64,000 nt of DNA from positions 103,998,960 to 104,062,959 of the forward strand of contig JASCQW010000072.1 in assembly GCA_030264375.1 (NCBI GenBank), written 5' to 3'. This DNA comes from Carcharhinus longimanus. Taxonomy: Eukaryota. Made by a program: the position numbers. Positions 57,001 to 63,000 of this stretch are shown in pieces. How positions within the stretch are numbered: the stretch's first letter is position 1; each line of letters opens with the position of its first letter.

Positions 57001-60000
57001 TAGGGCTAATGTTTCAAGGCAGGATGACCCTACATCAGAGCTTCAGATTCAGATTCCAGCATCTGCAGTACTTTGCCTTTATTGACAATTTTTAAACTCA
57101 GCTCGACAGCATACAAGCATTATATTCTAGGCAGTGACAAGGCAATGTTTGGTGGCCTCTCTAATCCAGTATCAGAATGGAGTCAGATTGAGACCTGACA
57201 CTGGCCTGACCTGAGTTATATTGCCACTCTTAGTTGCTGGTGAAGATGTGGCCGCTTTGTTGTGTTGCAAAATTGTCACCATAACTGCACTCCTTATATC
57301 TTTGGGAATTAGATTGTCAATCTCATTGCAGAGGAATGACTTTCATATCAGGAGGCTCTCATAACACTTTGTATCATTGCAAATGTAACATTATAACTGC
57401 AGCCTCAGATATAATAGTACATAATAAGGAAAGCATAGTGACGATCATATATGTGGGGTTGTGAATTCCAAATGTTAGTAATTCTATTCTACACTAACAG
57501 ATCACTTGTGGCATTGCTGAGAGCGAATGTGATGTTACACTATTGCAAGTACATGGTACTGAGTGTGAATGTGAGGGAAGAGTTCACTACATCATTGGAA
57601 GAATTTGAAAAGAAGTTTGGAAGAACTGTCCTCAGAAACAGTGCAGGATCTTTCATTCTTTCATGGAGAACCTAGATAGTGTTATCCTGCTGAAGACCGA
57701 TAAATAAATCCCAGAGGCAAAAAAATCATTTCTGCACATAATTTGGGAAACAGCCTTTTGGTGCACTCCTATTCCACCTTCGATGAGAGAAAGAGCCAAA
57801 AGTAGGAGAGCACTGAGAAATGCCAGGTTGCAGACTACATTGGATATTCAAGCTGGGCTTTTTTAGGGCTCCTGTCTATTACAGAGCTCTTGTTGTAAAA
57901 GGGATGTAATAAGGATTTCCCTAAGTCAGATGTATCTCCTCCCCAGCTTGCAGTCGAGAACAGGCTTATGATTGCCACAGACATACTTGTCTGGTTCCAA
58001 CGGGTATACCCGACCAATCCAATTGAAGGGAGATCCATTCCAGCCCCTGGGGGTGGGTTGGTGGGCCGAATTGCCAAAGACTAGTAGCCCAAAAACTGTT
58101 GGGGGAGAATAGAGCAGCTCTCTTGTAAGGGGCCCATACAGTCACACAAATGATTTTAATAGCTGGGTGATCCAGAACGTTTCCTCCAGCCCGCCACTCA
58201 CTAGCCTTTCTCCCACCCTCCTCCCAGCCCTAGTCCAGCCATCTACTGGATTAGTTAGGGTAACCACGAATTTTCCTAATTTTCCTAATACTATGGACTG
58301 TCTGACTCTAAAGGTTCATTCTCATGAATACAATAGGACCGAAGACAAATTTCTGCAATGTTCCCAATCCTTTATAGGTCTTTACATTTTATTATTTGAA
58401 TCCTTCATTCTTTATCAAATATCTGTGCAACAGCATTCTTAATTTAGGTTCAAAACTAGCATTGTCTCCATAGTAAAGTTCTCATCCTTGCGTTCAAGGC
58501 TTTCTGTGCTTACCCAATTCTATCTCACTCAGCCCCTACCCACCTCCTTGAAATCTGTATTCCTCCAACTCTGGCGTCTTTTCCATCTCATATTTCTCTC
58601 ATTCCATCATTATTGGCCGTGCATTTAGCTGACTAGATCCAAAGCTCTGGAATTCCATCCCTAAACTTAAAATTTGACCCTTTGAACACACTTTTGGTCA
58701 TATATCCTAAAGTTTCCTTTGGCTCAGTGTTGAATTCTGTCGCATTATGCTCATGTGCTATTCTCTGGGACATTTTATTATATTAAATACAAATAAGCAG
58801 AAGTAAATGTAAATTGTTATCTAGAATCTGTGTACTCCATTTTTGTTATAACAACATCCTTCAGTAACTTATTTTGATGTTATGATGCAGCTCTGCCTGA
58901 ATAACCTATTACTGTAATTTGTAGTCGTTAAAATCGTCTTTGATGTGAAAAATGTCTCTGTAATCATCATCAATAATCTTCATTTTTGAGTAATGAAGTT
59001 GTTGTAGTCTCTTTCCCTGCATACACAGAATCAATTAGTTGTTTTTTTATTTCCTTATAGGTTTGATGATCTTATGAAAAATTTACCACTGCCGGAGTAC
59101 TGTGATCCAGAAGGAAATCTAAACTTGGCATGCCGGCTACCAAATTTCTTTGTGCGGCCAGAGTTAGGGCCCAGACTGTGCAGTGTTTATGGTAAGCATG
59201 ACACACACTGCAGTCTACACAATTATGTGCTATTTTGTTGGAAAAGGCTACTCTCTAAATGACTGTGTTCATTTACAGGACAGTCAACTGCTAAGGAACA
59301 TGGAACTATCAATCTGCACCTAGACATTGCTGATGTAGTCAATGTGCTTGTTTATGTTGGTCTCCCAAAAGGGAATGCGAACAATCACAGAGCAGGTAAT
59401 TTCTCAACGCTTCATTTTCACTGTGAACTGGGTTGATTTTTTTTTTGAAGAGTCACACCTACAGTATTTTGAACTATTCTGTCTATCTGAAACGAGAACA
59501 GAAAATGCTGGAAAAGCTCAACAGACTGGCAGCATCTCTGGGTAGAGAAGCGAAGTTAAGATTTTGAGTCTGTATGACCCATCTTTAGAACTGAAGAAAG
59601 GGAGAAATATGGTGGATTTATCACTGTTGTAATGTAAGGAGTGTGACAGTTAATTTGTATACAGTAAGCTCCCACAAACAGTACGATGACGATCCAGTAT
59701 CTGCTTTAGTAATACTCAGGAGAACTCTGTTCTTTGGAATTGTGCCCCAGAATCTTTTACATCCACCTGAGAGGGCAGACAAAATGGTACTTTAATATGT
59801 TATCCAGAAAATTGCACCTCCAACAGTGTAGCACACTGTACTGAGATCTCAATCTAGATTTTCTGCCTATAAGTAAAGAGCTTAATCAAATAAATAGATA
59901 TTTGAACTCCCTTTCTGCTTCTTCTCTTCGTTCAAAGAGCTATTGATGACATCTGTCAATATACCTGTGAACTAGACCATCAGATGATATTGTCCATTCA

Positions 60001-63000
60001 TTGTGTGCAATGAGCACAATACATTGGGAGTTGTTTCTTAACATTAACTGAAAACCACTAAATCAGATTTTAAATGTTGCTGCCTAAAGAAAGAACAGAC
60101 TTGCATTTATATAATTTATTTCATGACCTCCTGAGGTTCAAAGCACTTCATAACAAATTAAGTACCACTATTTTGAAATGTAGTCACAGATTGATGGTTG
60201 TTTTTGTAACAGATTGAGGATGGATTGCTTGTTTACATCAAAAATGCAGTAATTATGGAGTATCTGATGCTGCCAATAAAGAAAAAAATCATATTTAAAA
60301 TTGCTGATTGCACGACTGTTTTGATTTTTGGGAAATAGAGGACCATATTTGCATATACATTATAATTCTGATGGAAAAGAAAAATGTAATGAAAAAAATT
60401 CCCATTTCATCTAATTGGTACCCATAAGCCTTGTAACAACATTAATAACATAATGTGAAGATCCCCAACTCTGATTTCAAATTATTCAGCTGATATCCAG
60501 AGCTGCTCACAACCATAACCCAATCCATGATTGGGAAATCCCTTAGACAATACTATATTCCTCACATTTTAACAGCGGTCACTAGGCAGTATTGCGTGTT
60601 TTATTTTAAATGCATTCATGAGATGAGGCCATCGCTGACTGTGCCAGCATTTTATTGTCCATCTCTAATTGCTTGCTGTCTGGCTTGCTCGGCCATTTCA
60701 GAGAGCATTACTGTGGATCTAAAGTCACATGTAGACCAAACCAGTTAAGGACTTCCCTAAAGGACATTAGTGAACCAGATGAGTCTTTTTACAAAATGAT
60801 TTCATAATCATCCTTAATTCCAGGTTTTTATTGAATTCAAATTTCACCATCTACAATGATGGAATTCTAATTAGGGTCCCTTGAGTGACAATACCACTAT
60901 GCCTCTGCCTGTATAAATTGCCACATCTACAATGTACAGTGTTGGCAGCAAAGACAATCAATTCCTAAACACCAACATAATGAGCCACTCCCAACTCATC
61001 CTGGAACTTAAAATTTTATGGTGCAAGAGAAAACCAAAATGGCAGGTCTCAAAGCAGAGCTTCAATAGTTAAAGTAATTGACATCCATCTCTAAGTAAGA
61101 ACCTGTTGCTCACTTTTTAATACTTCGTCGGTGGTAAAAAAAAATACTGAAAGCACTCCCTGCCTTCTATCTTCCTTTAATGGCATGTTGTCATGGAGCT
61201 GTAGAGAAAACTCACTAATAAAATAAAGTCACCCCAAGGTCAAAGAATTTTATATCACTGTTTGAAATTGCATAGTTGTTCTTGAAGCTTTGTCTCTGAA
61301 GAAATGTTTTCCTACATTCTTGGTGGAATTTATTGGCTTGGGGATTATCTATTATATGTAGAGACCTATTTAGATTGCAGAGAGAGAGGAACATGCGTGT
61401 GCTGGGTAAAGTATCTTGTTTAGATAATTGAAATCATTTTAATCATCTGTTCAGTTGCAAGTTCCTAACAGCTATTTTCAGTGCCATACTCTGAACATAA
61501 AACCATCAAGCTTGTGCATTGGAACATACTTGTGACACTAATAAATCAACTTAAACACATTTGCAAAAGTGCTCAATTTCTGTTTTTCCAGCTATCTTGA
61601 CGAAAATTGAGGAAGACGAAATTGATGAAAACACAAAGAAAAGATTGAAGGATAGTGATGAGACTCCGGGTGCTTTGTGGCACATTTTTTCAGCCAAAGA
61701 TACAAACAAAATAAGGAAGTTTCTACAAAAGGTGAGCAGTTTATACACTTTGACAGCACAAAACTTCAGCAGAAGTGCACTGATCTGCCATGTTGTGGTG
61801 CAAACCGAAATGGTTAGCAACATTGAATGGTTTTGGAAATGGGTTAGGTTCCATAGTTTTATGGACTGAAGAAATTTGGATTGGTTCCTTTTCATTTGTA
61901 TTGAAATAATGAACCACAAAGTAAAATCACCTCATCAAGTTATTGAAGGATATATGTTCTAATTGCCTTGTTTGATATTTTTCAAGTCTTGTATTGTCAA
62001 GGGAATTTTATTAAAACAAGATGGCTTACTGTAATGTGCCCAACTATAAGTTTTATATTTCCTGGGAGAAGTTGTTTTCATTTATTTCTTTGTTAACAAA
62101 ACTGTGTCAAAGTTTAAAAAGCTTCTTATGAAATCACAGCTTACCTCGAATAAGAACGCTTTGTTTCACAATTCAGAGATGTATCTGACAACTGAGTGTA
62201 ATGCAGGGATGTTAGAAAATTTACTTGTTTGTTGTGCCCCCATCAAAAAGGCTAATGAGGATCAGGGTCAGGAATCGCTTGAACATGAGCCAATCCGTGA
62301 TCAGACTTGCTACCTGAACAAGAAACTGCGCCGGAAGCTGTATGAAGAATGTGGAATACGCAGTTGGGCTATCTTCCAGTTCTTGGGTGATGCAGTCTTC
62401 ATACCAGCAGGGGCACTGTGTCAGGTAATTCAAGGCAGTCTCTACCAGAGAATAAGGAATGGTAGCAGCAGTTGGTCATTTGGGTCTTGGAGACTGCTCC
62501 ACTATTCACCAAGATCTTGACTGCTGATCCACCTCAACTCCAGTTCCCTGCACATTCCCCATAAAATTTCATTCCCTTAGTTTCCAAAATATTGTCAGTT
62601 TCTGTCTTGAATGTACTGAATGATTGAACATCACAGCTCTCTGGGATAGAAAACTGTAAAGATTCATGACTATTTGATTCATGACCTCATGTCAATTCTA
62701 AATAGTCGACTGCTTATTCTGAGACCGTGGCCCTCCAGTTCAGGGGAAAATATCTTCTGAACATCCACCCCGTCAATCCCTTTAAGAATTTTATGTTTCA
62801 ATGAGAACACTTCTCATCCTTCTAAACGCCAGAAAACATAGGCCTATCTCGCCTCATAGGACAATATCCACATGCCAGGAATTGGAGTAATGAATCTACA
62901 TTGCACTCCCAAGGCAAGTGTATCTTTTCTTCCATAGCATTCCAGGTATGGTCATATCTGGACCCAATACAATTACAGAAAGGTTAATTCTTATATCCCA

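What the first reader, a model, noticed from the sequence alone, without database searches (positions are those of the whole stretch)
59279..62424. KDM3/JMJD1C-like JmjC domain with substituted cofactor ligands (distal His to Cys, Thr to Ile)
The HxD pair is intact (CAC 59317-59319, GAC 59323-59325). The third iron ligand in the family motif PAGA(P/L)HQV reads PAGALCQ (TGT 62419-62421). GTTNLH reads GTINLH at the position that usually helps bind 2-oxoglutarate. All four exons keep frame and splice sites, which suggests selection on a catalytically altered or dead paralog. It mixes JMJD1C-like and KDM3A/B-like residues (HLD). It may be the shark Hairless-lineage member, which in mammals has Cys at the first His instead.
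Basis: partly seen in the sequence, partly recalled or inferred. Interest (0 to 1): 0.65.

Follow-up and report, generated by a model that had tools for sequence, protein, structure and literature searches.

The report
Shark JMJD1C with broken iron site
These exons are the tail end of a shark's JMJD1C gene, whose enzyme-like domain lacks one of its three iron-holding residues, as it does in every cartilaginous fish checked, so the domain probably no longer works as an enzyme.

Summary
The exons read GTINLHLD and PAGALCQ at the stated codons, with canonical splice sites.

The gene is not Hairless and not a new paralog. It is the JMJD1C (KDM3C) ortholog of a shark close to Mustelus. The four exons match Mustelus asterias JMJD1C at 184 of 187 residues.

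The lost third iron ligand is clade-wide. It is Arg in 15 of 15 cartilaginous-fish species. It is His in the 8 bony-vertebrate JMJD1C and 3 KDM3B rows compared. The window's Cys (TGT) would be one CpG transition from a CGT Arg codon (inferred).

Thr to Ile is shared with Mustelus, Scyliorhinus and Cetorhinus (3 of 15).

The domain stays conserved and is not accelerated after the loss. This points to a long-kept, probably non-catalytic JmjC fold, in line with reports that human JMJD1C shows no H3K9 demethylase activity (PMC3623819).

Open points:
- No upstream JMJD1C exon lies in the 59 kb before these exons. A PAX6-type gene sits there instead.
- The Cys could be a base-call error for Arg.

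I searched exon by exon and made no joined model.

The parts
59061..59191 (+). JmjC exon, matching residues about 2184-2227 of Mustelus JMJD1C. Begins with the last base of a split Arg codon, so it needs an upstream exon.
   Evidence: Acceptor tttccttatag|G and donor G|gtaagc. tblastn with Mustelus JMJD1C, E 1e-44 together with the next exon. phmmer against solved JMJD1C 1e-20, KDM3B 2.4e-16. 43/45 residues identical to Mustelus.
59161..59163 (+). GAG, Glu where the 26 aligned JMJD1C and KDM3B rows have Asp (RPDLGP). Specific to the window.
59185..59187 (+). GTT, Val where Mustelus and the other sharks have Ala. The five rays also have Val. Differs from Mustelus.
59279..59395 (+). JmjC exon carrying GTINLHLD (the HxD iron ligands and the substituted Thr).
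   Evidence: Splice sites. 38/38 residues identical to Mustelus JMJD1C. phmmer against solved JMJD1C 1.3e-7.
59308..59310 (+). ATC, Ile at the position three residues before the first His. Thr in most relatives.
   Evidence: Aligned to the second Thr of GTTNLH in human JMJD1C. Ile also in Mustelus, Cetorhinus and Scyliorhinus, Thr in the other 12 of 15 cartilaginous fishes, Ala in 5 of 5 ray-finned JMJD1C.
59317..59325 (+). CAC CTA GAC, the intact His-x-Asp pair.
   Evidence: HLD in 15/15 cartilaginous-fish JMJD1C and 3/3 KDM3B; HxE in 8/8 bony JMJD1C.
61592..61731 (+). JmjC exon (AILTKIEEDE...KIRKFLQK).
   Evidence: Splice sites. 46/46 identical to Mustelus. phmmer against solved JMJD1C 4.3e-14, KDM3B 5.9e-11.
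62251..62424 (+). JmjC exon ending PAGALCQ|gtaatt. The next exon lies beyond the window.
   Evidence: Splice sites. 57/58 identical to Mustelus. Pfam JmjC 8.6e-5, just under the cut-off for this piece alone. phmmer against KDM3B 1.8e-18, JMJD1C 3e-16. No later exon found up to 64000.
62419..62421 (+). TGT, Cys at the position of the third (distal) iron-binding His.
   Evidence: Aligned to the His of PAGALHQ. Arg in 15/15 cartilaginous-fish species, His in 8/8 bony JMJD1C, 3/3 KDM3B and 31/31 unnamed KDM3-family rows.

Best explanation
These are four consecutive 3' exons of the JMJD1C (KDM3C) ortholog of a carcharhiniform-type shark close to Mustelus. They encode the middle of the JmjC domain.

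Shown: in the ancestor of all living cartilaginous fishes the third iron ligand of the 2-His-1-carboxylate triad had already changed from His to Arg. In the lineage leading to Lamniformes plus Carcharhiniformes, the Thr three residues before the first His changed to Ile. In the window's lineage the Arg has become Cys.

Inferred:
- The Cys arose from Arg by a single CGT to TGT transition at a CpG.
- Without the distal His, and here also without the Thr, the domain cannot hold Fe(II) and 2-oxoglutarate as active JmjC demethylases do. It therefore acts as a structural or binding module within a large scaffold protein.
- An Arg to Cys swap being tolerated suggests that the side chain at this position no longer matters much.
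For: Identity:
- The window exons are 184/187 identical to Mustelus asterias JMJD1C, then 169 to Cetorhinus and 168 to Scyliorhinus. They match 109-121 of 187 in the bony JMJD1C rows and 110 in the KDM3B rows.
- Names come from NCBI and UniRef as listed.
- Tree of 26 JmjC regions: cartilaginous-fish JMJD1C form one clade (SH-aLRT 97), beside bony JMJD1C (99), and the two together are split from KDM3B (100).
- Mustelus JMJD1C aligns to alligator JMJD1C over 2394/2446 residues, and to KDM3B over only about 1025. It carries the KDM3 DUF7030, PWWP, Tudor and JmjC domains.

Iron and cofactor positions:
- Distal His column: Arg in 15/15 cartilaginous-fish species (16/16 rows fetched). An unnamed transcript-like record also reads PAGTLRQ. 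It is His in 8/8 picked bony JMJD1C, 3/3 KDM3B and 31/31 unnamed KDM3-family rows.
- Thr column: Ile in 3/15 cartilaginous fishes, and Ala in 5/5 ray-finned JMJD1C.

Constraint:
- The window keeps 82 of 103 columns that are at least 80% conserved in the family. Callorhinchus JMJD1C keeps 81, and two unnamed rows with the JMJD1C-type HxE motif keep 83 and 77.
- Mustelus and Callorhinchus are 76% identical over the 380-residue JmjC region, against 69% over the whole protein.
- Root-to-tip lengths in cartilaginous fishes (about 0.25-0.46) are no longer than in bony vertebrates (about 0.35-0.42).

Literature (passages seen):
- Human JMJD1C showed no H3K9me1/2 demethylase activity, and mutating one iron-binding His kills KDM3A and KDM3B (PMC3623819).
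- KDM3C activity is called controversial (PMC7280979).
Against: - Nothing matching residues 1-2183 of Mustelus JMJD1C is found anywhere in window 1-59000, on either strand. The first exon here starts mid-codon, so either the upstream intron is very long or this copy is detached from the rest of the gene.
- A PAX6-type gene lies head-to-head at about 8-24 kb. That is not the REEP3/EGR2 neighbourhood I recall for JMJD1C.
- All three differences from Mustelus are derived in the window (Asp to Glu, Ala to Val, Arg to Cys). This is too few to test, but it is what a relaxed copy or a noisy assembly would also give.
- Loss of activity is inferred from residues only. Hairless, with a Cys at another ligand position, is reported active (PMC8237996).
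- No shark DNA other than the window was available. The CGT to TGT path and any dN/dS are therefore untested.
- The window was not placed in the tree itself, because the joined model was left out.
Confidence: 0.8

Rival explanations
1. The four exons are a detached partial copy of JMJD1C (a segmental duplicate or gene relic) lying upstream of a PAX6-type gene. The true full-length JMJD1C lies elsewhere in this genome, and the window-specific changes reflect relaxed constraint.
For: No upstream JMJD1C exon in 59 kb. A PAX6-type gene is the neighbour. No other Pfam domain was found in the ORFs of at least 55 residues that were scanned across 1-8 kb and 24-59 kb (148 and 108 ORFs). All 3 of 3 differences from Mustelus are derived on the window's side, two of them at positions fixed in all other sharks.
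Against: About 187 codons are open and all 8 splice dinucleotides are intact, and 184/187 residues match the ortholog. Two of the three changes are conservative. No short JMJD1C-like shark protein appears among the best 120 of 496 hits of the 'shorter' search, apart from one unnamed 343-residue record at 77% identity. The stretch without 100-N joins reaches back only to 34757, so an intron of 24 kb or more plus a scaffold join explains the same facts.
Confidence: 0.13
2. The Cys is not biological. TGT is a base-call, assembly or rare-allele variant of the clade's Arg codon, and the PAX6 adjacency comes from a scaffolding join.
For: The scaffold is gap-rich: ten N runs, three of exactly 100 N, between the PAX6 exons and the JmjC exons. 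Cys is seen in 0 of 15 other cartilaginous-fish species. C to T at a CpG is also the commonest polymorphism (general knowledge).
Against: The bases around 62419 are unambiguous and far from any N run. The conclusion about the gene (JMJD1C without the distal His) would stand either way.
Confidence: 0.15
3. The domain is still a metal enzyme: His, Asp and the new Cys form a working three-residue metal site.
For: Hairless, with Cys at the first ligand position, is reported to demethylate H3K9me1/2 (PMC8237996 and PMC7280979, passages seen).
Against: The Cys replaced an Arg that had stood there in all other cartilaginous fishes, so activity would have to be regained after a very long loss. The Thr before the first His is also gone, replaced by Ile. 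No assay exists.
Confidence: 0.04
4. It is the shark member of the Hairless (HR/KDM3D) lineage.
For: Only that both have a Cys at one metal position.
Against: 184/187 identity to a named JMJD1C. That ortholog is JMJD1C-like along its whole length, and the cartilaginous-fish proteins sit in a clade beside bony JMJD1C. The first His is present here, whereas HR has Cys there (PMC8237996). No HR sequence was on hand for a direct comparison.
Confidence: 0.01

Closest known systems
JMJD1C / KDM3C of bony vertebrates (human structures 2YPD, 5FZO, 9GDK)
   Same: Same gene family and, by tree and full-length alignment of the nearest ortholog, the same orthogroup. Three of the four window exons score higher against solved JMJD1C than against KDM3B. 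Human JMJD1C is also reported inactive on H3K9me1/2 (PMC3623819).
   Different: Bony JMJD1C keeps the distal His (8/8) and has HxE. The window has Cys and HLD. It has Ile where tetrapods and coelacanth have Thr.
JMJD1C of other cartilaginous fishes (for example Mustelus asterias, Callorhinchus milii; public predicted proteins)
   Same: HLD, a lost distal His and overall sequence. Ile is shared with Mustelus, Scyliorhinus and Cetorhinus.
   Different: They all have Arg at the distal position (15/15 species). The window has Cys, plus Glu for Asp and Val for Ala in the first exon.
Hairless (HR / KDM3D)
   Same: A KDM3-family JmjC domain with a Cys at one metal-ligand position.
   Different: In HR the Cys replaces the first His and the distal His is kept (PMC8237996). 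Here it is the reverse. HR is reported active. No direct sequence comparison was made.
KDM3A / KDM3B
   Same: HLD motif and JmjC fold. About 65% identity of the last exon to human KDM3B.
   Different: Active enzymes with a complete triad (3/3 KDM3B rows have His and Thr). Much slower-evolving JmjC domain.
JmjC proteins that lack cofactor residues (JARID2, some plant KDM3 members)
   Same: Conserved JmjC folds with substituted cofactor-binding residues, thought to work without catalysis (PMC3623819 and PMC2579438, passages seen).
   Different: Different subfamilies and different substitutions. No functional data exist for the shark protein.

Membership tests
JMJD1C (KDM3C) orthogroup | JmjC-domain sequence closest to JMJD1C rather than to other KDM3 members | tested here: met
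   184/187 identical to the NCBI-named Mustelus asterias JMJD1C; 110/187 to KDM3B rows. Three of four exons score higher against solved JMJD1C than KDM3B.
JMJD1C (KDM3C) orthogroup | Falls in the JMJD1C clade of a family tree | tested here: inconclusive
   Met for the near-identical Mustelus protein and 14 other cartilaginous-fish proteins (SH-aLRT 97, 99 and 100). The window itself was not placed, because that needs the joined exons. KDM3A and HR were not in the tree.
JMJD1C (KDM3C) orthogroup | Full architecture: N-terminal DUF7030, PWWP and Tudor domains, long middle region, zinc finger, C-terminal JmjC | tested here: inconclusive
   Present in Mustelus JMJD1C. In the window only residues 2184-2371 are found and nothing matches residues 1-2183. 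The rest may lie outside the window.
JMJD1C (KDM3C) orthogroup | Conserved neighbourhood (REEP3 and EGR2, as recalled for human 10q21) | tested here: not met
   The only other gene seen in the window is a PAX6-type gene on the opposite strand. No REEP or EGR domain was found in the scanned ORFs. Scaffold joins lie in between. The expected neighbours are recalled, not taken from a call.
Active JmjC Fe(II)/2-oxoglutarate dioxygenase | HxD/E pair of iron ligands | tested here: met
   CAC CTA GAC at 59317-59325.
Active JmjC Fe(II)/2-oxoglutarate dioxygenase | Third (distal) iron-binding His | tested here: not met
   Cys (TGT 62419-62421) aligned to the His of PAGALHQ. The column is His in 31/31 unnamed family rows.
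Active JmjC Fe(II)/2-oxoglutarate dioxygenase | Thr three residues before the first His, which contacts 2-oxoglutarate (role recalled from FIH, KDM2A and PHF8 structures) | tested here: not met
   Ile (ATC 59308-59310). Thr in 28/31 family rows.
Active JmjC Fe(II)/2-oxoglutarate dioxygenase | Demethylase or hydroxylase activity | not testable with these tools
   Needs an enzyme assay.
Hairless (HR / KDM3D) | Cys in place of the first His of the metal motif, other ligands kept | tested here: not met
   The first His is present and the distal His is absent. The HR feature is taken from PMC8237996 (passage seen).
Hairless (HR / KDM3D) | Sequence closer to HR than to other KDM3 members | not tested

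The most novel reading that the evidence does not exclude
After several hundred million years (recalled) with Arg blocking the iron site of JMJD1C in cartilaginous fishes, one shark lineage has replaced it with Cys. This rebuilds a three-residue metal site (His, Asp, Cys), the mirror image of the Cys/Glu/His site of mammalian Hairless, which is reported active. The domain may have regained metal binding or some catalysis.
Probability: 0.04. Interest if true: 0.7.

Novelty: new variant of a known kind. Interest (0 to 1): 0.42.

Why it matters
Whether JMJD1C is an enzyme at all is debated (PMC3623819, PMC7280979). A whole vertebrate class has kept the JmjC domain of JMJD1C well conserved while lacking one of the three iron ligands. 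Ray-finned fishes lack the Thr as well. This is a natural experiment arguing that the domain's main job in this protein is not catalysis.

My two searches for JMJD1C with 'cartilaginous fish' or 'shark' returned 1 and 27 papers. The one paper of the first search and the 10 listed of the second looked unrelated by title and abstract. The residues are, however, visible in public predicted proteins.

For the window itself the result is mostly a correction: an ordinary ortholog, not a Hairless-like novelty, with one extra lineage-specific change.

Tried and rejected
- Hairless identity: rejected (see the rivals).
- Separate catalytically altered paralog: rejected in favour of orthology.
- Lys 17 residues after the first His as a second 2-oxoglutarate ligand: I first counted it as 'kept'. 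I dropped it because active KDM3B rows have Ile, Gln, Glu or His there, so it cannot be a ligand in this family.
- The search for homologous proteins with the last exon, 'longer': nothing found. This was an artefact of the 103-2000 residue limit, since JMJD1C is longer; one search found 1330 relatives.
- Acceleration of the JmjC domain after loss of the His: not seen.
- Other genes or JMJD1C exons around the locus:
  - tblastn with 46 unnamed KDM3-family proteins found nothing outside 58900-62600, and tblastn with Mustelus JMJD1C found no credible match outside these exons.
  - Pfam scans of 148 and 108 ORFs of at least 55 residues gave only a chance-level Sterol-sensing hit and a reverse-transcriptase fragment.
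- Pfam on single exons: only the last reaches JmjC, at 8.6e-5 and just under the cut-off.
- The listing of cluster members could not be run.
No structure prediction, complex prediction or atlas search was run. The short unnamed hits were left unused because some could be human. The closed collections (metagenome and viral contigs) and genome contigs (bacteria and archaea only) were not searched.
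Full report
**What is there**

Reading the window shows four plus-strand exons with canonical AG and GT sites: 59061-59191, 59279-59395, 61592-61731 and 62251-62424. The finding's coordinates cover the last three. The fourth lies just upstream.
- The second exon reads ...GTINLHLDIAD..., with ATC at 59308-59310, CAC at 59317-59319 and GAC at 59323-59325.
- The last exon ends ...FIPAGALCQ|gtaatt, with TGT at 62419-62421.
- The two codons split by introns read Gly and Ala. 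These are the residues that the closest ortholog has at those junctions.
- The first exon starts with the last base of a codon, so an upstream exon is required.
- No following exon is found before the window ends.

I worked exon by exon throughout. The joined (spliced) model was not built, searched, folded or placed in a tree, and counts over exons are sums of per-exon numbers.

**Is it a JmjC domain with changed ligands?**

Each exon alone matches the solved human JMJD1C and KDM3B JmjC domains.

| Exon | JMJD1C E-value | KDM3B E-value |
|---|---|---|
| 1 | 1e-20 | 2.4e-16 |
| 2 | 1.3e-7 | 1.4e-6 |
| 3 | 4.3e-14 | 5.9e-11 |
| 4 | 3e-16 | 1.8e-18 |

- The Cys aligns with the His of PAGALHQ in JMJD1C.
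- The Ile aligns with the second Thr of GTTNLH.
- In an alignment of 31 unnamed KDM3-family proteins from the representative search, the distal column is His in 31 of 31. The Thr column is Thr in 28, Ala in 2 and Ile in 1.
- That the Thr three residues before the first His contacts 2-oxoglutarate is my recollection from FIH, KDM2A and PHF8 structures, not a call.

**Which gene?**

The best representative hit, P0006, turned out to be Callorhinchus milii JMJD1C. A search with its JmjC region returned named JMJD1C proteins of 14 further shark and ray species. All 16 such rows were fetched.
- The window's exons are identical to Mustelus asterias JMJD1C at 184 of 187 positions (43/45, 38/38, 46/46, 57/58).
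- The next closest are Cetorhinus at 169 and Scyliorhinus at 168.
- Eight picked bony-vertebrate JMJD1C rows give 109-121, and three KDM3B rows give 110.
- A maximum-likelihood tree of 26 JmjC regions (quick search, SH-aLRT only) puts the 15 cartilaginous-fish proteins in one clade (97). That clade sits beside bony JMJD1C (99), and both are split from KDM3B (100).
- Mustelus JMJD1C aligns with alligator JMJD1C over 2394 of 2446 residues in one segment, but with KDM3B over only about 1025. It has the DUF7030, PWWP, Tudor and JmjC domains.

The gene is therefore JMJD1C of a shark close to Mustelus.

The Hairless idea fails:
- The first His is present here. A review states that HR differs from KDM3A by a Cys at the first His (PMC8237996, passage seen).
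- I had no HR sequence for a direct comparison.
- The 2011 paper on HR evolution found no non-mammalian HR (PMC3216519, sections 4 and 9 read; its supplementary figure not seen).

**The substitutions in context**

- Distal His column:
  - Arg in 15 of 15 cartilaginous-fish species.
  - His in 8 of 8 picked bony JMJD1C and 3 of 3 KDM3B.
  - Cys only in the window.
  - An unnamed transcript-like record at 77% identity also reads PAGTLRQ.
- Thr column:
  - Ile in Mustelus, Cetorhinus and Scyliorhinus.
  - Thr in the other 12 cartilaginous fishes (Narcine reads GTTLLH).
  - Ala in 5 of 5 ray-finned JMJD1C.
  - Thr in coelacanth, alligator and turtle.
- HLD is the state of all cartilaginous-fish JMJD1C and of KDM3B. 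HxE is confined to bony JMJD1C.

The most economical history is as follows:
- His to Arg occurred before the chimaera-elasmobranch split.
- Thr to Ile occurred in the ancestor of Lamniformes and Carcharhiniformes.
- Arg to Cys occurred in the window's lineage.
- TGT is one C-to-T change from CGT at a CpG. That step is inferred, because no other shark DNA was available.

**Is the domain still under constraint?**

- The window keeps 82 of 103 columns that are at least 80% conserved in the family. Callorhinchus keeps 81, and two unnamed rows with the JMJD1C-type HxE motif keep 83 and 77. Most departures are shared with Callorhinchus.
- The JmjC region is better conserved between Mustelus and Callorhinchus (76% over the 380-residue region) than the whole protein (69%).
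- Branch lengths give no sign of speeding up after the His was lost. They do show that the JMJD1C JmjC domain evolves several times faster than the KDM3B one in all vertebrates.
- About 187 codons are open and eight splice dinucleotides are intact.

No dN/dS could be run.

**Mechanism**

- Shown: the triad is incomplete and the Thr is gone.
- Established for relatives: changing one iron-binding His to Ala abolishes KDM3A and KDM3B activity, and human JMJD1C showed no H3K9me1/2 activity in the same assays (PMC3623819, passages). A review calls KDM3C activity controversial (PMC7280979, passages).
- Inferred: shark JMJD1C cannot act as an Fe(II)/2-oxoglutarate oxygenase, and its JmjC fold is kept for a structural or binding role. 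A radical Arg to Cys swap being tolerated suggests that the side chain at this position is no longer important.
- The caveat is Hairless, which is reported active with a Cys at another ligand position.

**What does not fit**

- tblastn with the near-identical Mustelus protein finds nothing for residues 1-2183 anywhere in 1-59000. The same was true for 46 other family proteins.
- A PAX6-type gene lies on the minus strand at about 8-24 kb.
  - Its paired-domain exon scores 6.6e-25 against human PAX6.
  - Its homeobox and C-terminal exons were recognised by eye.
- Two papers on Pax6 loci do not mention a JmjC gene there (PMC3554528 and PMC4122933; term searches in the text).
- Between the two genes lie eight N runs, three of exactly 100 N. 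The gap-join-free stretch with the JmjC exons reaches back only to 34757.

Three readings remain:
- a long intron (24 kb or more) plus a wrong or coarse scaffold join;
- a real adjacency with a very long intron;
- a detached partial copy of JMJD1C.

The three differences from Mustelus are Asp to Glu at 59161-59163, Ala to Val at 59185-59187 and Arg to Cys. All are derived on the window's side. This is too few to discriminate. No short JMJD1C-like shark protein appears among the best 120 of 496 hits of the 'shorter' search, apart from the one unnamed record.

**Novelty**

- The gene and its shark orthologs are public predicted proteins.
- Two literature searches (JMJD1C with 'cartilaginous fish': 1 paper; with 'shark': 27 papers, 10 listed) returned only papers that looked unrelated by title and abstract.
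- I rate it a new variant of a known kind: a JmjC domain without a full cofactor site.
- It has moderate interest for the debate on whether JMJD1C is an enzyme, and low interest as a property of this window alone.

**Left unchecked**

- Reads under the Cys codon.
- Codons in other sharks.
- dN/dS.
- HR and KDM3A in the tree.
- The true linkage to PAX6.
- The closed metagenome and viral collections, which are not relevant here.
- Paper supplements.

Noticed in passing
window 8047-24052, minus strand: A PAX6-type gene lies head-to-head with the JmjC exons. The paired-domain exon sits in ORF 23729-24052. Homeobox exons sit in ORFs 13267-13695, 12786-13223 and 10262-10927. C-terminal exons sit in ORF 8047-8751. 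JMJD1C is not expected beside PAX6.
   Followed up: partly
window 25627-25726, 30185-30284, 34657-34756 (100 N each); also 10337, 23200, 26757, 27989-28481, 33125, 48178, 50044: There are ten N runs. The three of exactly 100 N look like scaffold joins, and all lie between the PAX6 exons and the JmjC exons. Several runs are flanked by G or C homopolymers (seen as poly-Gly or poly-Pro ORFs). None was filled or looked up.
   Followed up: no
window 63826-63999, minus strand: A reverse-transcriptase fragment runs off the window's end (Pfam RVT_1, E 2.1e-5, below the curated cut-off). It is probably a retroelement relic in the intron after the last JmjC exon.
   Followed up: partly
proteins P0169, P0170, P0179, P0184, P0192 (ray-finned JMJD1C); P0168, P0171 (rays): The Thr before the first His is Ala in all five ray-finned JMJD1C rows looked at. 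Narcine reads GTTLLH. Cofactor-site drift in JMJD1C is therefore not confined to sharks.
   Followed up: partly
protein P0119 (unnamed, 2557 aa): A distant long KDM3-family protein also reads GTINIH with HxE but keeps the distal His. It is an independent Thr to Ile change.
   Followed up: no
window about 32.7 kb, 41.6 kb and 49.8 kb: CA/TG microsatellites show up as His-Thr repeat ORFs.
   Followed up: no
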